Assembly: GCA_964453265.1 (NCBI GenBank)
Contig: CAYVNU010000002.1
Coordinates: 40,619-104,618, forward strand
Length of the DNA stretch: 64,000 nucleotides
Direction: 5' to 3'
Source of the DNA: an uncultured Candidatus Saccharibacteria bacterium
Lineage (GTDB): Bacteria; Patescibacteriota; Doudnabacteria; UBA920
Shown: piece by piece, positions 940 through 61,918 of the stretch
Layout of the letters: each line of letters opens with the position of its first letter
How positions within the stretch are numbered: position 1 is the first letter of the stretch
The notes under the pieces: generated by a model
What the model was told of the DNA's origin: nothing
The model's input: the letters and a program-made list of their open reading frames with translations, nothing else
The model's database searches: none
Program-made: the position numbers and the translations under genes

Positions 940-986
940 CCCCTCCTTCGCTAAAGCTTCGGCGGGCAAAGCAAGGCTTCGGCGGA
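940..986. repeat. Dispersed GC-rich repeat, copy R1 (cctccttcgctaaagcttcggcgg...)
   Basis: Shares cctccttcg(c/t)taaagcttcggcgg with copy R4, and gcttcggcgg (reverse-complemented) with copy R5. Confidence 0.45.
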
Positions 987-2879: not shown

Positions 2880-3060
2880 AATATTATTTTAATAATTGAT
2901 TTATTAAAAATAGCAAAATAATTAATTTTAGACAATGAAAGCTTCTAAATAAAAAAGGGCAGCGGGGTTACTGCCCAAAAATTCCGCATTGCAGTCCGCC
3001 TTCTAAGGTTCGCCTGCAATGGAGTTCTGGGTGCAAACTGCACACCAAGTAGTTGGTGCG

Positions 3061-3249
3061 TCAGCCAGGCACCCAAATTAAAATTCCCCTGTATATTTCT
3101 AACTCCTCGCATACCGGGCACCCATCGCCCGGTTTATACCCATATGGTATTTCGCCGGACGGAACCGGCTTGCCATATGTTGCAAAAAGAACATCCTCCT
3201 CTTCAAGCCACTGCTGGAAAACCAGCAGGGTGGCTTCATTATGAGTCAT
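3061..3249 (-). CDS. Hypothetical small protein (62 aa)
   Basis: The ORF sits in a local GC-rich patch and a plus-strand ORF overlaps it. It has a CPVC pair. This is a weak call. Confidence 0.3.
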   Translation of the reverse strand: MTHNEATLLVFQQWLEEEDVLFATYGKPVPSGEIPYGYKPGDGCPVCEELEIYRGILIWVPG

Positions 3250-3287
3250 TTAGATATGTTAGCATATTTTATGAAATGTTTTAAAAT

Positions 3288-3318
3288 AAAAAAAACGCCA
3301 CTTTTGTAGGCGTTTTTT
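3288..3318 (-). terminator. Terminator hairpin
   Basis: aaaacgccacttttgtaggcgtttt, flanked by A and T runs. Confidence 0.5.
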
Positions 3319-3319
3319 A

Positions 3320-3646
3320 CTAGTTTAACTCAGGTTTTTTTGTGTATCCTGAAACAAGACCTATTCTTCTTAAAGTCCAACTGGTAATGAGCTCGGTTAA
3401 GCCTTTGCCTGCAGCTGAATTTTGCAAAGCTTTTTCAACATCTGCAAGGAAACTTTCAGGGTCTAATACGTGTAATTCAGCCAGTAAGCTTTGAGCGGCA
3501 TCACCGTGTATTAACAAAAAGCCAAATGAACTATCGGAATCTGTGTCCATATTTTCCCGAACACATTCAAGGAACAAATCTTCTAATTCTTCCAACAACC
3601 TCATTTTCTTCATTTCTTTTGGCTCTTCGCCATATTCTCCACTCAT
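3320..3646 (-). CDS. Hypothetical acidic protein (108 aa)
   Basis: The ORF has a coherent frame. No motif was recognised. Confidence 0.5.
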   Translation of the reverse strand: MSGEYGEEPKEMKKMRLLEELEDLFLECVRENMDTDSDSSFGFLLIHGDAAQSLLAELHVLDPESFLADVEKALQNSAAGKGLTELITSWTLRRIGLVSGYTKKPELN

Positions 3647-16854: not shown

Positions 16855-17175
16855 ATGTCCTCAATCAAAATTGACGAAGTAAATTTTAAAACTGAAGTAT
16901 TAGATGAAACTTTACCTGTTTTAGTCGATTTTTGGGCTGTTTGGTGCGGACCCTGTAAAATAATTGGCCCAATAATAGAAGAACTTTCTTCTGAATACGC
17001 TGGAAAAATGAAATTTGGCAAAGTAAATGTAGACGAAAATAACTCACTTGCTTCCCAATTTGGCGTTATGAGCATACCAACCCTTAAAATCTTTAAAAAT
17101 GGCAAAGTTGTCGGCGAAATGATCGGAGCAGCACCTAAACAGGTTTTAGAAGACGAAATTAAGAAGCATATTTAA
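16855..17175 (+). CDS. trxA: Thioredoxin
   Basis: The WCGPC active site (WAVWCGPCK) and a length of 106 aa. Confidence 0.9.
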   Translation: MSSIKIDEVNFKTEVLDETLPVLVDFWAVWCGPCKIIGPIIEELSSEYAGKMKFGKVNVDENNSLASQFGVMSIPTLKIFKNGKVVGEMIGAAPKQVLEDEIKKHI

Positions 17176-17252
17176 TTAAATACTTGGATCAATCGAGAAA
17201 GTTTAAAACTTTTGAGACTGGTAACTAAATTGGTTGGTGTTAAAGTACAATT

Positions 17253-17280
17253 AAGCCTTGAATAAAGGCTTTTTTGTTTG
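17253..17280 (+). terminator. Rho-independent terminator of trxA
   Basis: aagccttgaataaaggctt followed by tttttg. Confidence 0.6.
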
Positions 17281-17339
17281 TTTTTCATTAACCAATTTCG
17301 TGTATGAAATCAGTATGTAAATATTGAAATAAGAACCAT

Positions 17340-17692
17340 CCAGATCCGCCAAAGTCCCGACTGGTCGGGACGACGGTGGAAGAGTCGCTGGCGCTCTGAG
17401 TGGCTAAACTGATTAATTACCAACCTAAAAGGTTACCAGTCGCAAACTTTTTTACCAATATACTCTAATAACCTCCTCCCCGGGTTCCGATAACTCCACC
17501 CGGGGTTTCCAACACGGCGCCCGCGATGATTATCAATCGCTAAGAGCTTACCTGCTGGCGGGCGTAACTTGCTTTCCAAAACGGGGATGGTTTTGGAAAG
17601 AACAGAGCCGTTCATCCCCGGACGGCGGTGAAGATCTGTTTTAAGCTTATGGCTTCAATGCTGGCCGCCTGTCCGGGGTTTTCTGGCAGACT
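17340..17692 (+). ncRNA. GC-rich structured region and candidate ncRNA; class unresolved (tmRNA, SRP RNA and 6S-like RNA not excluded)
   Basis: A roughly 350-nt island of about 50% GC sits in an AT-rich genome. It contains nested hairpins: gtcccgac/gtcgggac, ccccgggt/acccgggg, ctttccaaaac/gttttggaaag and cggggatg/catccccg. A strong terminator hairpin follows. The only ORF in the region is a spurious antisense one. Confidence 0.3.
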
Positions 17693-17728
17693 AAAAAGAG
17701 CCTGTAATTACAGGCTCTTTTGTATTTT
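17693..17728. terminator. Bidirectional terminator hairpin
   Basis: aaaaa-gagcctgtaattacaggctc-ttttgtatttt. Confidence 0.55.
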
Positions 17729-17773
17729 ATTAGCAACCAATTTATGCACCAGTCACCAGTCTCGTACATTTTC

Positions 17774-19555
17774 TCAAACGATTTTATGAACCTGACCTGG
17801 CTTTATTACTGTTTTAGTGTTTACAGGATTTATGATTTTATTTATATTGTCAGCATCGTGGATATCTGCATTTTTTTGGTTTCCAATACTTTTATTAAGA
17901 TCTCCTAACTGACGCTGTTTTTTTTCTCTTTCTAAATTAGCTATTGTATTCCAGATTGGATTTTCTTTTTTTCCTTCAGTTTTTTTTGTATTATTTTTTT
18001 TCTCAGAAAATTTAGGATTTTGATGAATTTTTGTTTTAAAATCTTTTTTTGATTTAACAACTTCTTCGTGGGGCTTACTCGAAAAAGTTTGTGTTATAGG
18101 TTTTACAGCTATTTCCCGACTGCTTGTATCAGGAGTTTTTACCAAAGGTTTTTCAGGCAAGGCTGTAATTTGTTCTATGTTATTCAAATTTAAATCAGTA
18201 TTTTCATTTTCCAAATCCTCAGAGCTATCTTTTAAAATAGCTGTCTCCTCATGAAATTCCGCACCCATCCAACGAGAAATTTTTTCTTCTACATCTAAAA
18301 CAGGGTTAGTATACCTCTCTCTGGAAACTTTTATAACTTTGTCAAAATTACCGGAATAATATTCGGGGTTTGGAGATAAGGTAATGGCAGAAAACGGTTC
18401 ACTAGCAACGCCATTTATCATTAATTTTAAAATAATTTGATATTTAGGCAGGTTTACCATGTCGTTTGGCGTAAAAATCGGTTCAAATTCAGTTTCTAAA
18501 AACTCCGCGTCAGCAGCACCAATCCTAAACAACACAATTGTTCCCACGTTTCCAAAAATAGCGTCTCTAACTTTTGTACTACGATCTTGTTCTAACTGAG
18601 CAATGTACTGATGCCCGACAATCAAATTTAAGCGGTATTTTCTGGCTTCACTTAAAATTGTCGCGAAACTTTCAGTGGCAAAATTTTGAAATTCATCAAC
18701 GTACAAATAAAAATCTTTTCTTTCGTGCTCAGGAATGTCTGTTCTTGACATGGCTGCAAGTTGAAGTTTTGTTACCACCATTGCCCCCAAAAGGGCGCTG
18801 TTGTCTTCGCCTACTTTACCTTTAGACAAATCCATAATTAAGATTTTGCGCTTATCCATTATTTCGCGCAAATCTATTGTGCTTTTCGGCTGGCCAACAA
18901 TATTTCTAATAATGCCGCTAGATAAAAATTGTCCTACTTTATTTTGAATAGGGGCAATAGCTTCTGTTCTATACTTCTCATTATAATTAGCAAATTCATC
19001 GACCCAGAAAGCCTTAACCATAGGGTCTTTAATATTATCAACAATTTTCTTTCTATACTTTTTATCAACATACATTCTGGTAATACCTAAAAGAGTATTG
19101 CCAGGGCTATCTAGCAAAGCCAAAATTGTATTATTTAAAATATATTCCATTCTCGCTGACCATAAGTTTGCCCAAATTTTAGTAAATACACCCATAAGCC
19201 CGCTAGCTACCAAATGTTTATATTTAGCGTCAACAGCCTCTAAAATATTAAATGCTACGGGAAATTCCAAATCAGCTGGGTTAAAATATATTACGTCATT
19301 AACACGGTTAGATGGGATGGAATTTAATATTCTTTGAACTGAGTCTCCGTGCGGGTCTAAAAACGCCACACCATTGCCGTTACGGATATCCTGAATGACC
19401 ATATTTTCCATTAATGTGGTTTTACCCATTCCCGTTTTACCAATTAAGTACATGTGCCTTCTTCGATCATCGGTTTTAATACCAAAAGCCACATCTTTAT
19501 TTCGGAAGTTGGTTTTAGCAAAAACAGTAATTTTGTTTTCTTGATTATTTTCCAT
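17774..19555 (-). CDS. AAA-like ATPase of the TraD/VirD4 coupling-protein (AAA_10/TraG-D_C) family
   Basis: N-terminal Walker A (LIGKTGMGKTT) followed by FLDPHGD, a Walker B (LYVDEFQNF), and a Lys/Asn-rich tail of about 130 aa. Confidence 0.65.
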   Translation of the reverse strand: MENNQENKITVFAKTNFRNKDVAFGIKTDDRRRHMYLIGKTGMGKTTLMENMVIQDIRNGNGVAFLDPHGDSVQRILNSIPSNRVNDVIYFNPADLEFPVAFNILEAVDAKYKHLVASGLMGVFTKIWANLWSARMEYILNNTILALLDSPGNTLLGITRMYVDKKYRKKIVDNIKDPMVKAFWVDEFANYNEKYRTEAIAPIQNKVGQFLSSGIIRNIVGQPKSTIDLREIMDKRKILIMDLSKGKVGEDNSALLGAMVVTKLQLAAMSRTDIPEHERKDFYLYVDEFQNFATESFATILSEARKYRLNLIVGHQYIAQLEQDRSTKVRDAIFGNVGTIVLFRIGAADAEFLETEFEPIFTPNDMVNLPKYQIILKLMINGVASEPFSAITLSPNPEYYSGNFDKVIKVSRERYTNPVLDVEEKISRWMGAEFHEETAILKDSSEDLENENTDLNLNNIEQITALPEKPLVKTPDTSSREIAVKPITQTFSSKPHEEVVKSKKDFKTKIHQNPKFSEKKNNTKKTEGKKENPIWNTIANLEREKKQRQLGDLNKSIGNQKNADIHDADNINKIINPVNTKTVIKPGQVHKIV

Positions 19556-30730: not shown

Positions 30731-33490
30731 TTATGATTTTTTATGATACGGCGCGTTTACCATTCCGCACTTTTTATACTTATACACTTTGCCGGTTTCG
30801 GGGTTAATTGCTCCGCAAGGGCAAGGGTCGTTGCGGCCTACATTTTCTGTTTTTACGCCTTCGGATGAATTATAATTTGAAGATAATAAGGGACTTTCAG
30901 TTTTATTGGTAACTAAATTGCTCGGAACAGAAGTTTGCTGATTTGCTGATAAATTGGGCTGAACATTAATATGAAAAATGGTATAAACCATTTGCTTGTT
31001 CATTTCTTTTATTAAGTTTTGAAACATAATAAAACCCTCTTTTTTGTACTCAACCAACGGGTCTCTTTGACCATAGCCTCTTAAGCGCACAGAGTCCCTT
31101 AAATGATCCATGGTATCTAAATGCTCCATCCATAAAGTATCCATAGCCTGCAAAGCTACAAAACGCATGGCTCCGTCAAACACTTCCTCTCCCATTTCTT
31201 TTTCTTTTTCCTCAAAAAGTTTTACCGCTTTTTGGCTCAGCGCGTCAACAACGGCAAATTCTTTATTTGCAGCGTTTTGAGCTGCGGTTTTTATTTCATT
31301 TGCCAAAGCTGTGTCAACAGGAATAATTGCGCCAATTGTTTTAATTAAGCTATCCCAATCTTCTTTAGTATTACCGTTTTCATCGAGAGTGTTTAAATTT
31401 TGAGTTGCTAGTTCCGAAAATTCATTCTTTATTAACTCCAAAAACTCTTCTTTCAATGTTTTACTATCTTCCAGTTTTTCCTTTGGATAGCCGGGCAAAA
31501 AACGCCTGCGGATTTTGTAAATTATATTGCGCTGATGGTTTAATACGTCATCAAATTCCAAAACGTGCTTGCGAGTGTCAAAGTTAAGGCCTTCAATTTT
31601 CTTTTGCGCAGATTCAATCGAGCGAGAGACCATTTTGGCCTCTATTGGCTGCTCGTCGGGAAGACCCAAAGAAGTCATAAGACTTTTCATCCGCTCACCA
31701 CCAAAAAGACGCATAAGGTCATCTTCCATGGAAACAAAGAACTGCGAAGAACCCGGGTCGCCTTGGCGTCCGGATCTACCTCTTAATTGATTGTCAATTC
31801 TGCGAGATTCATGGCGCTCCGTGCCTAAAATATGCAACCCACCGGCCTTTTTGACCGCTTCTGCCTCTTCAGGGTTAACCGGATTACCACCAAGCAAAAT
31901 GTCCACACCACGGCCGGCAATATTTGTAGCTAAAGTTACTGAACCAAAACGCCCGGCCTGAGAAATAATATGCGCTTCACGTTCATGATTTTTGGCATTT
32001 AAAATTTCAAATTGCACACCTTCCTTTTTTAAAACTTCCGCCAACATTTCATTTTTCGCAATACTAACAGTACCGATTAACACCGGTTGGCCTTTTTTAT
32101 TTCTCTCTTTAACTTCTTGAGCAATGGACTTAAATTTTGCTTCTTCAGTTTTATAAACTACATCGGGCAAATCTTGCCTAACCATAGTTCTGTTAGTCGG
32201 AATCTGTTCAATAGTCAGCCTATAAATTTTAAAGAATTCCTCTTCTTCAGTTTTCGCCGTGCCGGTCATGCCGGATAAAAACCAATACAGTCTAAACAAA
32301 TTCTGAAAAGTAATAGTGGCTAAGGTTTTACTTTCTTGTTGAATTTTTACATTTTCTTTCGCCTCAATTGCCTGATGAAGTCCTTCGCTATATCTACGGC
32401 CAAACATAAGCCTGCCAGTAAATTCGTCGACAATAATAATTTCTCCTTCACGGACAACATAATCACGGTCAACTTTAAACAAAGTTCTTGCTCTTAAAGC
32501 CTGCTCAATATGATGAATGGTAGTTACGCCTTTACTGGTGTCGTAAATATTCGGAACTTTTAAAATGCCTTCTATTTTATTTATACCCGCATCGGTTAAA
32601 CTGGCGGCTTTATGTTTTTCGTCTACTGTGTAGTCTAGTTTTTCATCTAAACGGTCGATAATTTTAGCGTATTCATAATATTTACTGGTCGGCTCAGTGT
32701 CGGGCGTACTAATAATTAAAGGCGTCCTGGCTTCATCTATTAAAATTGAGTCAACTTCGTCGACAATTGCAAAAAATAAATCACGCTGAGTCATTTGGCT
32801 AAAATGCTGAACCATGTTGTCGCGCAAATAATCAAAACCAAATTCATTGTTAGTTCCGTAAGTTATATCGGCCGCGTAAGCTTCTTTTCTGGTAATAGGT
32901 CTCATGTGCTTAACGTCTAAAACAAGTCCTTGAGTTTCGCCTTCCAACTTTTTTACTTCTTCGTCTTCCGGCTTATATTCCGGGTCATACAAAAAACTCG
33001 CTTCATGCTGAATGGAGGCAACGCTTAAGCCTAAAAATTTAAACAAAGGACCAATTAAAGAAGCTTGCCAGCGGGCTAAATAATCGTTAACGGTAACTAA
33101 ATGTGCGCCCTTGCCTGCAAGTGCATATAAAACCAAAGGCAAAGTAGCGGTTAAAGTCTTGCCTTCACCGGTTTTCATTTCTGAAATTTTGTTGTCTGAA
33201 AGCGCGAGTCCGCCGACAATTTGCACGTCGTAATGAGTTTGCCCCAAAGTTCTTTTACTAGCTTCTCTTACCAATGCAAAAACTCTGGTTCTTACTTCCA
33301 GAATTTTTTCTTTTATTTCTTCTTTGGTCTGCAGCTTAGAAAATTCCTGCTTAAAATTTGCTATTTCAGCCTGGATTTGTTCTTGAGTTAAACCCGCGAT
33401 TTCTTCTTTAAAACTATTAACTTCTAAAAGTTCGGTTTTATAGCTATCCAATGCGCTTTTTTCACCGAATAATTTGTTTAAAAATGACAT
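30731..33490 (-). CDS. secA: Preprotein translocase ATPase SecA
   Basis: 919 aa with DEAD motor motifs (MKTGEGKT, DEVDSILIDEARTPLIIS) and a C-terminal Cys-rich tail (CPCG...C). Confidence 0.95.
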   Translation of the reverse strand: MSFLNKLFGEKSALDSYKTELLEVNSFKEEIAGLTQEQIQAEIANFKQEFSKLQTKEEIKEKILEVRTRVFALVREASKRTLGQTHYDVQIVGGLALSDNKISEMKTGEGKTLTATLPLVLYALAGKGAHLVTVNDYLARWQASLIGPLFKFLGLSVASIQHEASFLYDPEYKPEDEEVKKLEGETQGLVLDVKHMRPITRKEAYAADITYGTNNEFGFDYLRDNMVQHFSQMTQRDLFFAIVDEVDSILIDEARTPLIISTPDTEPTSKYYEYAKIIDRLDEKLDYTVDEKHKAASLTDAGINKIEGILKVPNIYDTSKGVTTIHHIEQALRARTLFKVDRDYVVREGEIIIVDEFTGRLMFGRRYSEGLHQAIEAKENVKIQQESKTLATITFQNLFRLYWFLSGMTGTAKTEEEEFFKIYRLTIEQIPTNRTMVRQDLPDVVYKTEEAKFKSIAQEVKERNKKGQPVLIGTVSIAKNEMLAEVLKKEGVQFEILNAKNHEREAHIISQAGRFGSVTLATNIAGRGVDILLGGNPVNPEEAEAVKKAGGLHILGTERHESRRIDNQLRGRSGRQGDPGSSQFFVSMEDDLMRLFGGERMKSLMTSLGLPDEQPIEAKMVSRSIESAQKKIEGLNFDTRKHVLEFDDVLNHQRNIIYKIRRRFLPGYPKEKLEDSKTLKEEFLELIKNEFSELATQNLNTLDENGNTKEDWDSLIKTIGAIIPVDTALANEIKTAAQNAANKEFAVVDALSQKAVKLFEEKEKEMGEEVFDGAMRFVALQAMDTLWMEHLDTMDHLRDSVRLRGYGQRDPLVEYKKEGFIMFQNLIKEMNKQMVYTIFHINVQPNLSANQQTSVPSNLVTNKTESPLLSSNYNSSEGVKTENVGRNDPCPCGAINPETGKVYKYKKCGMVNAPYHKKS

Positions 33491-33580
33491 AAATATAGCT
33501 GTTTATTACCTAAAGAGTATATCATTATTACCGGCATTTGAAAACCCTTAAATTTAAGCTTGTTACTAATAATACTACAA

Positions 33581-33619
33581 GGCCGGCCATCATGATTTTG
33601 ATGGCCGGCTGGGTTTTTT
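33581..33619 (+). terminator. Strong terminator-like hairpin
   Basis: ggccggccatca-tgattt-tgatggccggc followed by tgggtttttt. Confidence 0.5.
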
Positions 33620-34079
33620 CCCGAAAAGTTTTTCAAACTTTTCGGGGCTCATCTCCTCAACCTTTCTGCCGGACATCCCGGCAAAAAATGAAGAGATTTC
33701 ATAGCACACCCTCAAGGTGTGCTCGGAGCTCCACTCAAACGAGTGGAGCTGATATGTTTTTCCCATACCGCCTCCTCGCAGGCAAGCCCAGCGCGCTTGT
33801 AATTCCCGCTATGTGATTTTGCGCTGGCGATTAGTTACAAAAATAACCAATCGCCAATTCAAATTTAGAGTCCTTTTGCACTAGCGTACTAGCCTGCCCG
33901 CCGACTCGTCCGACAAAGTCCGCCTCAGGCGGACGAAGTTGGAAGCTTTAGTGAAGGAGGGTACGGTGATACACGGAAATATTTAAGGGAAACCTCTTCT
34001 TAATCAACTATTTAAATAACTAACTAAGAAAGGGTGGCAGGTTTTTTAGGCCTGCCAAAATTGTTGATTTCAAAACTCA
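33620..34079. other. GC-rich hairpin-dense non-coding block
   Basis: Six or more perfect or near-perfect hairpins, for example cccgaaaagt/acttttcggg, agcacacc/ggtgtgct, gctccactc/gagtggagc, gtccgcc/ggcggac and ggcagg/cctgcc. The only ORF (33538..33816 +) looks spurious. Confidence 0.3.
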
Positions 34080-35742: not shown

Positions 35743-36957
35743 TCACACTAATTCTTTTAAATCAGAGTCAGAAAAACCTATTAATTCCGGCTCAATGTGG
35801 ATATTTATCCCGAGCTTTTCTAGGGCGGTTTTTTTAACTTGCTTAGCCAGATTTAAGACATCGCTTGCGGTAGCTTTGCCGGTTTGGTTAATTATAACCA
35901 AAGGTTGATTTTTATTAATAGCCGCCCCACCGAAAGCAAAATCTTTCAATCCGCAAATATCAAGCAAAAATGCAGTTGGTACTTTTACGCTATTGGCGTC
36001 AGTAAATTTTTTCTGTTCAAGTTTTTCAGCAGTTTCTTGGCCAAATTCTTTTTGCAACCTATTTTTTAAAATTAAAAATTCTTCTTGATTTAAAATTAAA
36101 TTTTTAAAAAATGAGCCGGCGTTACCTTTTTTAGCTTCTGTGGGAAACGGAAATTTTTTATTTCTTATTTCTATAATTGCCTGACGAATTTCTAACAGGC
36201 TTGGCTTTATATTGGCAAATTTTTGAGCTAAATCTCGGTAATTTAAAATCGGCAGAGGGTTTTTTGAAAGTTTAAAGACAATTTCAAAAATAATATACCT
36301 GCCTTTTTCAGTGCTATTAAATATGCTCTTTCGATACGAAAATCCGCAATCTGTTTTATTTAGACTTAATATTTGATGGGTTTGTTTGTCAAAAACCGTT
36401 ACAGATTCTATGAGATTTTTAGCTTCCTGTCCGTAAGCCCCGACATTTTGCACGGCAATAGCACCTGTGCTCCCGGGAATATGCGATAAATTTTCCATTC
36501 CCCACCAATTATTTTTTACCGCAAAATCAACCACACTGTCCCAATTTTCACCTGAAGCCACTTTAAGAAAAATAAAATTTTTATCCGATCCGAGTCCGCC
36601 AATTGGCGGAGAGGAATCGATTTTTTGTACATGCTGATTTATATTAAGGGATCCCTCCTCCTTCGTTAAAGCTTCGGCGGACAAGTCGGCCGCACTCGGG
36701 ATGGTTAAAACATGAAAACTTTCGATTACTTCAATCCCCTTATTTACAACCCTAATAACCAACCCGCTAAATCCACTGTCAGCTATTAATAAATTACTAC
36801 CCCCGCCCAAAATAAACACGGGTAAGTTTTTTGCTTGAGCAAATTCAAAAGCCGTTAAAGCATCAAACTGGTCTTTAACCTCGCAAAAATATTTGGCCGG
36901 CCCGCCTATTTTAAAAGTGGTGTAAGGTGCTAATTGTATATTTTCTAAAACTTTCAT
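35743..36957 (-). CDS. murB: UDP-N-acetylenolpyruvoylglucosamine reductase MurB, carrying an in-frame repeat-derived insertion
   Basis: N-terminal FAD-binding motifs (YTTFKIGGPAKYF, ILGGGSNLL). The 404-aa length exceeds typical MurB, and the dispersed GC-rich repeat at 36645-36705 lies in-frame inside it. Confidence 0.85.
   Translation of the reverse strand: MKVLENIQLAPYTTFKIGGPAKYFCEVKDQFDALTAFEFAQAKNLPVFILGGGSNLLIADSGFSGLVIRVVNKGIEVIESFHVLTIPSAADLSAEALTKEEGSLNINQHVQKIDSSPPIGGLGSDKNFIFLKVASGENWDSVVDFAVKNNWWGMENLSHIPGSTGAIAVQNVGAYGQEAKNLIESVTVFDKQTHQILSLNKTDCGFSYRKSIFNSTEKGRYIIFEIVFKLSKNPLPILNYRDLAQKFANIKPSLLEIRQAIIEIRNKKFPFPTEAKKGNAGSFFKNLILNQEEFLILKNRLQKEFGQETAEKLEQKKFTDANSVKVPTAFLLDICGLKDFAFGGAAINKNQPLVIINQTGKATASDVLNLAKQVKKTALEKLGINIHIEPELIGFSDSDLKELV
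36645..36705. repeat. Dispersed GC-rich repeat, copy R4, in-frame inside murB
   Basis: ttaagggatccctcctccttcgttaaagcttcggcggacaagtcggccgcactcgggatgg. In the murB frame it encodes TIPSAADLSAEALTKEEGSLN. Confidence 0.5.
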
Positions 36958-47226: not shown

Positions 47227-47375
47227 CCCGTTATAAATTTAGGATTAAATATTAAAAATCACCTTACTTTGACCCTTAAAACACACCCGTTAGATAATAA
47301 CTTCTAGCGGGATAAATCCTCTGTATTATACTGAATTTCCTTGACAAAAACAAGTTTTTTTGGTACCCTAAATGG

Positions 47376-47768
47376 GTTCTTAACAAACCGAATAATCGCT
47401 TTCCCGATTCATATCGGGAGGGAGGAAAGTCCGAACACTTATTTGATAGCCTCTTAAGAGTTATCAAAATTGGTAACGGGTAACGCCCGTATGGAGCAAC
47501 CCGCCGTCGCGTAAAGCTATGGCGAGCCAAGCCACGAGATGCGAACAGAAACGATTAAATCCGAAAGGGTTTAATATCCCCAAAGGGTAACCTTGGGATG
47601 TTCCGGTAGTAACACCGGAGTGAAACGGCTAAATTCTTACCTGAGTGCAAGGCCAAATTTGGTAGGCTGCTTGATCCCGGCAGTAATGTCTGGGGCAGAT
47701 AGATGATTATTTTTTCCGCCGTAAGGCGGGATGTTAAACAGAATTCGGCTTATGAGTTTGTTAAGAGC
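47376..47768 (+). ncRNA. rnpB: RNase P RNA, bacterial type A
   Basis: Contains the conserved blocks GGGAGGGAGGAAAGTCCGAACAC, GGGTAACGCCCGT...CAACCCGCCG, ACAGAAACG, GGAGTGAAACGG and GAGTGCAAGGCCAAATTTGGTAGGCTGCTTGATCCCGG...ACAGAATTCGGCTTATGAG. P1 pairs cttaacaaac with gtttgttaag. A TTGACA -35 hexamer lies at 47341. Confidence 0.85.
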
Positions 47769-58203: not shown

Positions 58204-58225
58204 CCTCTCCTTTTTAAAGGAGAGG
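58204..58225. other. SD-containing hairpin cctctccttttt/aaaggagagg between the DUF559 stop and the pgi start
   Basis: Perfect 9-bp stem that includes AAGGAGAGG. Confidence 0.4.
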
Positions 58226-58235
58226 TTAGGTGAGG

Positions 58236-58612
58236 TTATTTTGAAAATTCTTCTGATATTAATTTTTTCATAATTACTTGTAAAACCCCGTCAATATTTT
58301 CCATAACGTCTTTATTTGTAAATCGCAAAACTTTAAAATTTAATTCTTCAATATAACCCTGTCTCTGTTTATCTTTAACTACAACTTCTGAGCCTACATA
58401 ATGACTATCACCATCAACTTCTATAACTAATTTTTTTCAGTGCAACAAAAGTCTACAGAATAAGGTCCGATGCCGTATTGGCGACGAAATTTAAAACCTA
58501 ACAATTGGCGATTTCTTAGTTTTGACCAAAGAAGCCTTTCCGTAACAGGTTCGTCTTTTCTTAGTTTTCTTCTTATTTCTAAAGTGTCGGTAGGGTTATA
58601 AATATAAGCCAT
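58236..58612 (-). pseudogene. DUF559 (Vsr-like PD-(D/E)xK endonuclease domain) gene disrupted by a 1-nt frameshift in an A7/T7 homopolymer near 58430
   Basis: Frame 1 reads MAYIYNPTDTLEIRRKLRKDEPVTERLLWSKLRNRQLLGFKFRRQYGIGPYSVDFCCTEKN*. Adding one A gives ...TEKKLVIEVDGDSHYVGSEVVVKDKQRQGYIEELNFKVLRFTNKDVMENIDGVLQVIMKKLISEEFSK*, which is the canonical DUF559 VIE(V/L)DG core. Confidence 0.75.
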
Positions 58613-58665
58613 AATAACCTCCCTTAATCCCTCCTTTAAAAGGAGGGAAATAGACCCAGAACTAA

Positions 58666-60670: not shown

Positions 60671-61918
60671 CTATCTAACTATTTCTTCTAACGCTTTTTC
60701 CATTTGAGCGTCTTTGTTATTTTTAGCGTCTTCTTCTGTAATGGAAACTTTTACATCCGGTTCAAGTCCGTCTTTATTTAAATTCTTACCGTTTGGAGTT
60801 ATCCATTTGGCAATAGTTACTTTAACCGCGCTACCGTCTCTTAAATCTACCAATTCTTGCACACTGCCTTTACCAAAAGATTTTTCTCCGACTAATTTTG
60901 CAATTTTATAATCATGCAAAGCTCCGGATAAAATTTCCGCTGCCGAAGCACTGCCGCCGTTTATTAAAACTACAGTTGGCATATTCGCAAAACGGCTGGC
61001 TCCTTCTGCTTTGTAAACGGTGTTTTCGCCCGTGCTTTTTGCTTCAGTTACTACAGTCGTGCCACTCTTAAGCCAGTTAGAAGCCACAGCCACAGCAGTT
61101 TGCAAATAACCGCCCGGGTCATTGCGCAAATCTAAAACCAAACCTTCCGCGTTGTGGTTTAAAGCCTCGGTAACTGCCTGGTTAAAAAGCCCTTCTGTGT
61201 CATCGCCGAACTTAGACAGTGTAATAACCGCAATATTTTTTTTCTTACCATCTTTTTCAACAGTCTTAAATTCCCACTTTACACTTTTAACTTTTATAAC
61301 ATCTCGGATAATTTTTACATCAAAAGGCTTGTCTTTACCTTTTCTATAAATAGTCAAATTAACCGGAGTGCCTTTTTGACCGCGAATTTTTCCCACGGTT
61401 TCTTCCACTGACCAATTCTCGGTAGATTGCCCATCTACTTTAACAATAATGTCCTGAGCTTTTAACCCGGCTTTTTGCGCCGGACTTTCATCTAATGGAG
61501 CCACAATCACAATTAAACCGTCTTTTTTAGAAATTTCAGCGCCAATACCGTCAAAGCTGCCTTTTAAATCGGTTTTAAAGCTTTGCAAAGCTTTAGGTTC
61601 AAAAAAATCCGTGTAAGGGTCACCGGTAGATGCTACTGCGCCGCGAATCGCCCCGTATAAAACTTTTTGAGGGTTAACTGGCTTATCTATATATTTGGTG
61701 TCTAAAATATTTATGGCATCCCATAGTAAATTGTAGTCAACAACTTTAGGCTGATCTTGCTTGCTAATTACCTTAAAAGTTTTTGGTTCAAAAACCAAAC
61801 CTTTTTTCCCGGCTGCAAAACCCACTCTGTAGCTAATAGCCAATAAAGCAATAAAAAGTACAGCTATTCCGATTTTTTTCTGATTTTTCTTTGCAATTTC
61901 CTGATAATTTGTTTCCAT
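60671..61918 (-). CDS. ctpA: Carboxyl-terminal processing protease (S41 family, CtpA-like)
   Basis: N-terminal TM helix, a PDZ domain, and the S41 catalytic region GGSASAAEILSGAL. Confidence 0.85.
   Translation of the reverse strand: METNYQEIAKKNQKKIGIAVLFIALLAISYRVGFAAGKKGLVFEPKTFKVISKQDQPKVVDYNLLWDAINILDTKYIDKPVNPQKVLYGAIRGAVASTGDPYTDFFEPKALQSFKTDLKGSFDGIGAEISKKDGLIVIVAPLDESPAQKAGLKAQDIIVKVDGQSTENWSVEETVGKIRGQKGTPVNLTIYRKGKDKPFDVKIIRDVIKVKSVKWEFKTVEKDGKKKNIAVITLSKFGDDTEGLFNQAVTEALNHNAEGLVLDLRNDPGGYLQTAVAVASNWLKSGTTVVTEAKSTGENTVYKAEGASRFANMPTVVLINGGSASAAEILSGALHDYKIAKLVGEKSFGKGSVQELVDLRDGSAVKVTIAKWITPNGKNLNKDGLEPDVKVSITEEDAKNNKDAQMEKALEEIVR

What the first reader, a model, noticed from the sequence alone, without database searches (positions are those of the whole stretch)
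17340..17728. Unclassified GC-rich structured RNA candidate with its own terminator, downstream of trxA
A roughly 350-nt island of about 50% GC stands out in a roughly one-third-GC genome. It has at least four strong nested hairpins and a clean intrinsic terminator (17693-17728). It has no plausible coding capacity and sits in a 600-bp gap between convergent genes. These are the hallmarks of a stable ncRNA such as tmRNA, SRP RNA or a 6S-like RNA, or of a lineage-specific RNA. I looked for tmRNA hallmarks (a 5' GGGG...UUCGAC and a 3' T-arm with CCACCA) and did not find them convincingly. There is a tag-like frame after gtcGCAAAC (A-N-F-F-T-N-I-L then two stops), which is suggestive but atypical. 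If this turns out to be neither tmRNA nor SRP RNA, it is a candidate novel RNA family.
Basis: seen in the sequence. Interest (0 to 1): 0.6.

Follow-up and report, generated by a model that had tools for sequence, protein, structure and literature searches.

The report
Orphan repeat-flanked hairpin-rich non-coding insertion
The GC-rich, hairpin-packed stretch after trxA is real, but it is not tmRNA, SRP, 6S or RNase P RNA; it is a single-species, repeat-flanked non-coding insertion at a variable spot in a Patescibacteria (CPR) genome, with no detectable relatives, so no new RNA family can be claimed.

Summary
Positions 17340-17690 are 53% GC in a 35% GC window. They fold far better than shuffles (z -5.5 on +, -6.0 on -) and carry six perfect hairpins of 7 bp or more, against 0.85 expected. 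They have no coding signal and are followed by a strong bidirectional terminator. The named-family interpretation fails. Rfam 15 and ARAGORN find nothing, and the real RNase P RNA lies at 47380-47768. The 'tag-like' string is part of an inverted copy of the element's own left arm. Six related genomes with the same gene order have only a 30-66 bp terminator between the VirD4-like gene and trxA. Two others carry different insertions at that junction. The roughly 550 bp here is therefore a lineage-specific gain at a hotspot. It is bipartite: GC blocks at 17340-17400 and 17476-17690 sit in AT-rich sequence. That sequence holds three significant copies of a ~35-nt 'arm' and two terminator hairpins sharing the relative's AGCCT/AGGCT stem. 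Near-identity searches of 185,579 species genomes, JGI metagenomes, IMG/VR, phages, plasmids and 5.8 billion proteins found no relative. Best reading: a MITE-like or recombination-scar insertion. An orphan small RNA is not excluded. Strand and transcription are unresolved.

The parts
17205..17252 (+). Left 'arm': AT-rich sequence, copy 1 of the repeated ~35-45 nt arm motif (GAGACTGGTAACTAAATTGGTTGGTGTTAAAGTAC)
   Evidence: It has inverted copies at 17419-17452 and 17722-17754. Each beats all 500 shuffles.
17253..17281 (+). T1: intrinsic terminator hairpin AAGCCTTgaataAAGGCTT plus a T-tract, serving trxA
   Evidence: Terminator scan. The stem core AGCCT/AGGCT is shared with T2 and with the single terminator of the closest relative, L010.
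17272..17339 (+). AT-rich spacer (24% GC). It contains a weak partial arm copy (17281-17301) and a possible extended -10 box, TGTAAATAT, at 17316-17324.
   Evidence: Composition. The partial arm copy is matched by 12 of 500 shuffles. No consensus promoter was found. The -10 reading is by eye.
17340..17400 (.). GC block 1 (66% GC). Contains hairpin 17354-17371 (7 bp, CUGG loop) inside a 5-bp helix 17346-17350/17375-17379, and a second small hairpin 17381-17397. The 5' strand of a 5-bp closing helix lies at 17340-17344.
   Evidence: Folds and pair probabilities of 0.96-0.99. Composition.
17419..17452 (-). Internal inverted copy of the left arm (34 nt, 76%).
   Evidence: 0 of 500 shuffles. On the - strand it forms the 3' half of a 13-bp helix (17477-17465 with 17439-17427) that contains four G-U pairs.
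17476..17690 (.). GC block 2 (56% GC). Hairpins: 17478-17505 (8 bp), 17572-17600 (11 bp) and 17616-17678 (8+6 bp with a bulge). Alternative 8-bp pairing: 17582-17589 with 17613-17620. A domain that folds only on the - strand lies at 17509-17558. The 3' strand of the closing helix lies at 17682-17686.
17694..17721 (.). T2: perfect 12-bp palindromic hairpin with an A-tract before it and a T-tract after it. It is a bidirectional intrinsic terminator.
   Evidence: I4, 100% complementary.
17722..17772 (-). Right 'arm': inverted copy of the left arm. With T2 it forms a 61-nt, 75%-identical terminal inverted repeat against 17216-17275. It contains a 7-nt tandem duplication, ACCAGTC-ACCAGTC.
   Evidence: (E 6.5e-5).

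Best explanation
The roughly 550 bp between about 17205 and 17772 is a young, lineage-specific, non-coding insertion. It landed in, and partly duplicated, the single bidirectional terminator that separates trxA from the VirD4-like gene in related Patescibacteria.

It consists of two GC-rich hairpin blocks, probably of foreign origin, set in AT-rich sequence. That AT-rich sequence carries three copies of a ~35-nt arm and two copies of the terminator hairpin. The outermost copies form a 61-nt imperfect terminal inverted repeat.

The most likely nature is a miniature or decayed mobile element (MITE-like), or the scar of one or more integration or recombination events at a known insertion hotspot.

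Proposed working (inferred). The two end hairpins now act as separate intrinsic terminators for the two convergent genes and shield the core from read-through. The core itself has no demonstrated cellular function. Its perfect palindromes are what a DNA-level element or a recently formed element would show.

Shown: presence/absence across relatives, the repeats, the structure, and the lack of homologues and of coding signal. Inferred: mobility, foreign origin and terminator function.
For: 1. Insertion.
- Gene order SecD-SecF-sigma/HARE-HTH-DUF8128-VirD4-like, then convergent trxA, then PBP-MraY-amidohydrolase, is conserved in L002-L006 and L010. Their VirD4-like proteins are 70-85% identical to the window's.
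- In those loci the VirD4/trxA gap is 30-66 bp and holds one terminator.

2. Hotspot.
- L008 has an unrelated 102-aa ORF at the same junction.
- L011 and L012 have an HsdM + SMODS + SLATT island there.

3. Repeats.
- A 61-nt, 75% terminal inverted repeat.
- Arm copies at 17419-17452 and 17722-17754, each beating all 500 shuffles.
- T1, T2 and the L010 terminator share the AGCCT/AGGCT stem.

4. Composition.
- GC of 66% and 56% in the two blocks against 35% for the genome. The element is bipartite.

5. No relatives.
- Multi-seed scans of GTDB species genomes, JGI metagenomes and IMG/VR.
- Phage and plasmid blastn.
- Six-frame pieces against 5.8 billion proteins and against Pfam.
- nhmmer against 536 kb of related CPR loci.

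6. Main stems are perfect palindromes with no G-U pairs: 7, 8, 11 and 8+5 bp.

7. No consensus promoter faces the core on either strand, and a terminator faces it from each side.

8. The same genome holds another small insertion flanked by inverted repeats: a frameshifted DUF559 gene between 32-nt repeats at 58212-58641.
Against: - Only one copy is seen in the 64-kb window. No other copy of the arms or the core occurs in any locus or collection searched.
- No target-site duplication of ordinary length is evident.
- The terminal repeats are only 75% alike, which is odd for an insertion younger than the split from an 85%-identical relative.
- The core is more elaborately folded than typical MITEs.
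- Some helices exist on only one strand through G-U pairs, which points to selection on a single-stranded molecule. On the - strand these are a 13-bp helix with four G-U pairs (p about 0.015 in shuffles) and the 17509-17558 domain. On the + strand it is the helix 17346-17350/17375-17379.
- The search methods detect only close sequence relatives: roughly 24-nt seeds that tolerate third-codon-position changes.
Confidence: 0.45

Rival explanations
1. An orphan, horizontally acquired small-RNA gene on the + strand. It would be transcribed from a weak extended -10 promoter (TGTAAATAT, 17316-17324), begin near 17331, be closed by the 5-bp helix 17340-17344/17682-17686 and end at T2 (17694-17721 plus U-tract). 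Its cellular role is unknown.
For: - It lies between a terminator for trxA (T1) and its own strong terminator.
- A 24%-GC spacer lies upstream.
- Fold z-score is -5.5.
- The 3' third (17520-17690) folds better on the + strand: -41.5 and -45.8 against -33.9 and -38.3 kcal/mol.
- The G-U pair in helix 17346-17350/17375-17379 is possible only on the + strand.
- RNase P RNA in this window has the same layout, a + strand RNA gene among - strand genes.
Against: - No consensus promoter. trxA and rnpB both carry a perfect TTGACA box.
- The central 150 nt fold poorly on the + strand, with pair probabilities of 0.3-0.5.
- Overall, MFE and positional entropy favour the - strand.
- No conservation anywhere, and absent from all syntenic relatives.
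Confidence: 0.2
2. A structured RNA on the - strand. It would be a 3'-UTR extension or a 3'-derived RNA of the SecDF-sigma-DUF8128-VirD4-like operon, made by read-through of T2. It would form a chain of eight hairpins that could stabilise the message or block convergent transcription.
For: - The - strand has lower MFE (-136.1 against -130.8), lower ensemble diversity (50 against 72) and lower entropy (0.61 against 0.86). The same measures pick the correct strand for RNase P.
- Three abutting high-probability hairpins (17558-17427) contain about nine internal G-U pairs that become A-C mismatches on the + strand.
- The 13-bp helix has p about 0.015 in shuffles.
- Two other GC-rich islands in the window also favour the - strand, which is the coding strand.
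Against: - T2 is a good terminator on the - strand too, and it sits upstream of the core.
- The hairpin downstream on the - strand (T1) has no U-tract.
- No promoter was found.
- Absent from relatives that have the same operon.
Confidence: 0.12
3. A divergent housekeeping RNA (tmRNA, SRP RNA, 6S RNA or RNase P RNA) that the standard models miss.
For: - Size and GC content resemble such RNAs.
- The string CCAGUCGCAAAC...UAAUAACCU resembles the start and end of the E. coli tag region. This is from my memory only. A blastn of 17400-17500 against E. coli genomes found nothing.
- RNase P RNA of this genome fell just under Rfam's gathering score, so gathering-level scans can miss real RNAs here.
Against: - No hit to any of these families at E<=10 on a 651-nt query.
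- ARAGORN finds no tmRNA.
- RNase P RNA is at 47380-47768.
- No tRNA-like domain, T-arm or CCA end.
- The tag would be ANFFTNIL, and it lies in a repeat copy.
Confidence: 0.01
4. The RNA component, or a relic, of an RNA-guided or defence system: a TIGR stem-loop array, an IscB/TnpB omega RNA, or a retron or DRT non-coding RNA. It would have been left behind at a defence-island hotspot.
For: - The same junction carries a restriction-modification plus SMODS/SLATT island in L011 and L012.
- TIGR stem-loop arrays with variable palindromic stems occur in CPR bacteria (PMC12045711).
Against: - No Tas/Nop, IscB/TnpB or reverse-transcriptase gene nearby; the neighbours are conserved housekeeping genes.
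- The hairpin loops (4, 7 and 12 nt) cannot hold two 8-12 nt spacers with box C/D motifs.
- No HEARO or retron hit in Rfam.
Confidence: 0.04

Closest known systems
Miniature inverted-repeat transposable elements that sit between genes and act as terminators (for example neisserial Correia elements, enterobacterial ERIC, pneumococcal RUP). From general knowledge.
   Same: Small (<600 bp) and without an ORF. Flanked by inverted repeats. Present or absent between close relatives. Intergenic between convergent genes. Highly folded. End hairpins usable as terminators.
   Different: Only one copy seen. No short target-site duplication. Long (about 60 nt) and only 75%-identical terminal repeats, plus a third internal arm copy. 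The core is 18-30 GC points above the host and is made of several unrelated perfect hairpins.
REP/BIME clusters (REPINs). From general knowledge.
   Same: GC-rich palindromes clustered between convergent genes.
   Different: REP families are repeated many times per genome with a shared sequence. Here the stems are unique: motifs such as CCCCGG or GTCCCG are not enriched elsewhere in the window.
tmRNA (ssrA)
   Same: Size range, GC richness, a short open frame beginning GCA AAC and ending in two stop codons, and a following terminator.
   Different: No tRNA-like domain. No ARAGORN or Rfam signal. The tag lacks the usual hydrophobic C-terminus. The frame start lies in a repeat copy.
Orphan GC-rich intergenic RNA candidates found by GC/length screens of AT-rich genomes (the Breaker-laboratory approach). 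From general knowledge.
   Same: It was detected by exactly that criterion, and it is strongly folded with a terminator.
   Different: Accepted candidates rest on covariation among homologues. None exist here.
TIGR stem-loop arrays (PMC12045711)
   Same: Tandem hairpins with variable palindromic stems in a CPR genome.
   Different: No adjacent Tas protein, no box C/D-like periodic motifs, and loops too short for dual spacers.

Membership tests
tmRNA | tRNA-like domain: acceptor stem, T-arm and 3' CCA | tested here: not met
   ARAGORN reports 0 genes. No tmRNA-clan hit at E<=10. No T-loop hairpin is visible in the sequence.
tmRNA | Tag reading frame with a resume codon and a protease-recognised C-terminus | tested here: not met
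   The frame 17442-17471 encodes ANFFTNIL followed by two stops. Its first 11 nt belong to an inverted copy of the left arm.
SRP RNA / 6S RNA | Match to the family covariance model (domain IV motif; central bubble) | tested here: not met
   No hit at the gathering score or at E<=10.
RNase P RNA | P4 and the CR-I/CR-V core; one gene per genome | tested here: not met
   The true rnpB is at 47380-47768 (95.5 bits, E 7e-30). The candidate gives no RNase P hit.
MITE-like element | Terminal inverted repeats | tested here: met
   17216-17275 against 17754-17694: 61 nt, 75% identical, E 6.5e-5. Arms alone: 0 of 500 shuffles reach the score.
MITE-like element | Small, no transposase or ORF | tested here: met
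   About 550 bp. No ORF longer than 60 aa. No Pfam or protein homologue.
MITE-like element | Presence/absence polymorphism at the site among relatives | tested here: met
   Absent from L002-L006 and L010. The junction is otherwise occupied in L008, L011 and L012.
MITE-like element | Multiple copies in the genome or in relatives | tested here: not met
   No second copy in the 64-kb window, in 0.5 Mb of related loci or in the public collections. The rest of the source genome could not be read.
MITE-like element | Short direct target-site duplication | tested here: inconclusive
   No short duplication abuts the repeats. Instead the terminator plus adjacent arm is duplicated directly: 17254-17298 against 17699-17743, about 76% identical.
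Conserved structured non-coding RNA family | Homologues with covarying base pairs | tested here: not met
   No homologue was found by any search. Covariation therefore cannot be assessed.
Independent small-RNA gene | Own promoter and terminator; a discrete transcript | tested here: inconclusive
   The terminator is present. No consensus promoter was found on either strand. Transcription cannot be tested with these tools.
TIGR stem-loop array | Adjacent Tas (Nop-domain) gene; units with two 8-12 nt spacers flanked by box C/D motifs | tested here: not met
   The neighbours are trxA and a VirD4-like gene. The loops are 4-12 nt. The family description is from PMC12045711.

The most novel reading that the evidence does not exclude
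A species-specific, horizontally acquired structured RNA of about 350-400 nt in a CPR bacterium, possibly itself mobile. On this reading the GC blocks are cassettes that integrate next to a repeated ~35-nt arm or terminator sequence. It would belong to no described RNA class and would sit at a hotspot that holds defence genes in relatives.
Probability: 0.15. Interest if true: 0.55.

Novelty: new member of a known kind. Interest (0 to 1): 0.25.

Why it matters
If it is only a MITE-like scar, the main value is cautionary. GC-rich, hairpin-rich islands in AT-rich CPR genomes are not automatically RNA genes. Their absence from syntenic relatives is a quick test.

It also marks the VirD4-like/trxA junction as an insertion hotspot in this lineage. 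In relatives that junction carries defence genes.

If the core proved to be transcribed and functional, it would be a rare case of a very recently acquired large structured RNA in a reduced episymbiont genome. That would be worth following with transcriptomics.

Tried and rejected
Known RNA families
- Rfam at gathering score on the whole window, and at E<=10 on 17150-17800. The only hits were terminator look-alikes and a 26.9-bit RSV_PBS match, which is chance.
- ARAGORN: nothing.

Sequence relatives
- blastn of the element against phages and plasmids: nothing.
- Stop-free translations used as multi-seed probes against genome contigs, metagenome contigs and viral contigs: nothing. The source genome itself is evidently not in those collections.
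- Six-frame pieces against Pfam and against the 5.8-billion-protein set, to catch spurious ORF calls on homologous elements: nothing.
- nhmmer against the window and against 536 kb of related loci: nothing.
- blastn of the tag-like region against E. coli genomes: nothing.

A possible shared motif
- The motif AAAGTCC-hairpin-GGACGAnGnTGGAAG occurs at 17351-17385 and 33915-33946.
- It gave 12 hits in 185,579 species genomes against about 10 expected by chance. None was Patescibacteria and most were coding.
- The local alignment of the two islands is not significant (z 1.5). I treat it as unproven.

Alternative origins
- Remnant of the accessory ORFs found at the same junction in L008 or L011: no similarity.
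- REP-like family: the stem motifs are not repeated in the window.
- TIGR array: rejected on anatomy.
- Group I or II intron, hammerhead, HEARO, riboswitch: no Rfam signal, and no gene downstream.

Wider sampling
- The 80 extra VirD4-like loci from JGI metagenomes are only 51-71% identical and lack trxA synteny, so they added no information about this junction.

Full report
**1. Observation**

The window is 35% GC and almost all its genes lie on the - strand. trxA (16855-17175, +) and a VirD4/TrwB-like ATPase gene (17774-19555, -) converge on a 598-bp gap.

- Positions 17340-17690 are 52.7% GC.
- The segment 17330-17735 folds with z = -5.5 on the + strand and -6.0 on the - strand.
- The core has six perfect hairpins of at least 7 bp, against 0.85 expected. 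None of 1000 shuffles reached six.
- A 12-bp perfect palindrome at 17694-17721, with an A-tract before it and a T-tract after it, is a bidirectional intrinsic terminator. trxA has its own terminator at 17253-17271.
- No frame shows coding signal.
- The sequence is identical in two other assemblies.

The island is bipartite: 66% GC at 17340-17400, 33% at 17401-17475 and 56% at 17476-17690.

**2. It is not a known RNA**

- Rfam 15 gives nothing at the gathering score. A lax scan of 17150-17800 at E<=10 gives nothing credible.
- ARAGORN finds no tmRNA or tRNA.
- As a control, a GC-rich gap elsewhere in the window turned out to be the genome's RNase P RNA. It lies at 47380-47768 on the + strand and scores 95.5 bits, E 7e-30, just under Rfam's cut-off of 100.
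- Divergent housekeeping RNAs of this organism therefore still score strongly in that mode. The candidate does not, and RNase P is accounted for.

**3. Organism and synteny**

The VirD4-like protein places the window in Patescibacteria, near Candidatus Doudnabacteria.

- Contigs encoding homologues 70-85% identical (L002-L006, L010) keep the whole neighbourhood: SecD, SecF, sigma/HARE-HTH, DUF8128, VirD4-like, convergent trxA, PBP, MraY, amidohydrolase.
- In those contigs only 30-66 bp separate the two convergent genes, and that space holds a single bidirectional terminator.
- Two relatives about 87% identical have other things at this junction. L008 has an unrelated 102-aa ORF. L011 and L012 have an HsdM + SMODS + SLATT island.

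The roughly 550 extra bases in the window are therefore a gain in this lineage, at a junction that repeatedly accepts foreign DNA.

**4. Anatomy of the insertion**

- The left 'arm' (17205-17252) recurs inverted at the right end. With the terminator hairpin, the two ends match over 61 nt at 75% identity (17216-17275 against 17754-17694).
- The arm also recurs inverted inside the core at 17419-17452 (34 nt, 76%). Both copies beat all 500 shuffles.
- A weaker partial copy follows T1 (17281-17301). It makes 17224-17301 one long imperfect palindrome.
- T1, T2 and the single terminator of the closest relative share the stem AGCCT/AGGCT. This suggests that the ancestral terminator was duplicated.
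- The layout is: arm, T1, (arm'), AT spacer, GC block 1, arm', GC block 2, T2, arm'.
- No arm or core copy occurs elsewhere in the window or in any fetched locus.

**5. Search for relatives**

Only exact-pattern or protein-seeded scans of the large collections were available. I therefore used stop-free translations of the core as multi-seed probes.

- No relative in 185,579 species genomes, JGI metagenomes or IMG/VR.
- No relative among phage or plasmid records.
- No relative among 5.8 billion predicted proteins.
- No relative in 536 kb of related CPR DNA by nhmmer.
- These methods see only fairly close sequence relatives. Remote structural homologues cannot be excluded.
- A motif shared by eye with another island (33915-33946) did not hold up as a conserved signature.

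**6. Strand and transcription**

- *Whole-core measures.* These mildly favour the - strand: MFE -136 against -131 kcal/mol, and entropy 0.61 against 0.86. The same measures pick the correct strand for RNase P.
- *Region by region.* Positions 17400-17550 fold much better on the - strand. They form three abutting hairpins with about nine internal G-U pairs, including a 13-bp helix with p about 0.015. Positions 17520-17690 fold better on the + strand.
- *Signals favouring the + strand.* T1 lies upstream, then an AT-rich spacer, and T2 lies downstream with a good U-tract.
- *Promoters.* Neither strand has a consensus promoter facing the core. trxA and rnpB have perfect TTGACA boxes.
- *Stems.* The four strongest stems are perfect palindromes with no G-U pairs. 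A DNA-level or very young element would look like this.

Strand and transcription remain unresolved.

**7. Verdict**

The best-supported reading (about 0.45) is a MITE-like element or integration scar. It is non-coding, repeat-flanked and lineage-specific, and its end hairpins now terminate the two convergent genes.

The rivals are:
- an orphan small-RNA gene on the + strand (about 0.2);
- a structured RNA on the - strand downstream of the VirD4-like operon (about 0.12);
- a relic of an RNA-guided or defence system (about 0.04);
- a divergent housekeeping RNA (about 0.01).

Interest is low to moderate. The feature is real and unclassified, but it is single-copy, has no relatives and has no functional handle.

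Noticed in passing
window 47380-47768 (+): The RNase P RNA gene (bacterial class A) scores 95.5 bits, E 7e-30. That is just below Rfam's gathering score of 100, so a standard annotation run would miss it. A TTGACA box lies at 47341-47346, 17 nt before a TACCCT box.
   Followed up: yes
window 33560-34065: A second GC-rich gap with no ORF, upstream of secA (30731-33490, -). It is packed with perfect hairpins: fold z -11.5 on the - strand and -8.3 on the + strand. It has no Rfam hit. It may be a long structured secA leader or another insertion. Conservation in relatives was not checked.
   Followed up: partly
window 2930-3320: A third GC-rich hairpin cluster between two - strand genes of unknown function (z -7.8 on -, -6.1 on +). 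No Rfam hit, and no sequence similarity to the other islands.
   Followed up: partly
window 942-969 (-), 36657-36684 (-), 33937-33958 (+): The short repeat (C)CCGCCGAAGCTTTAGCGAAGGAGG occurs three times. One copy lies inside the MurB-like ORF (35743-36957), splitting its FAD-binding domain match into two stretches. This suggests an in-frame insertion of a small repeat.
   Followed up: partly
window 17346-17385 and 33910-33946 (+): The two sites have similar local anatomy: a 5-bp helix with a central G-U pair, then AAA, then a GUCC...GGAC hairpin, then GA(C/A), then the 3' strand of the helix, then AAG. There is a compensatory C-G to A-U change in the outer helix. It is not significant as an alignment and is not found in other species, so it stays unexplained.
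   Followed up: partly
window 58212-58641: A frameshifted DUF559 gene (Pfam E 1.9e-15 for the N-terminal 61 aa) is flanked by 32-nt inverted repeats that are 84% complementary. This is another small repeat-flanked insertion in the same genome.
   Followed up: yes
L011 6245-10244 and L012 (same junction in a relative ~87% identical): Downstream of the VirD4-like gene these loci carry an HsdM methyltransferase, a SMODS nucleotidyltransferase and a SLATT-domain gene in place of trxA. This is a defence island at the junction where the window has its insertion.
   Followed up: partly
L001 (Logan SRR12487046), contig end = window 17500: This independent contig stops 30 nt into GC block 2. That is what a k=31 graph would do if the sequence from about 17471 onward occurred in two contexts. 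It could equally be low coverage.
   Followed up: no
L007 5247-5288 against window 17144-17157: The ENA strain differs from the window by a ~28-nt indel at the 3' end of trxA (trxA was called as 111 aa instead of 106). Across the rest of the 6.2 kb it shows only 6 substitutions, and none falls inside the element.
   Followed up: partly
window 60852-60973 (+): A partial sub-threshold Rfam match to Rickettsia sRNA47 (40 bits, E 8e-7, model positions 36-157 of 316) lies antisense within the ORF 60671-61918. It probably reflects a conserved coding sequence.
   Followed up: no
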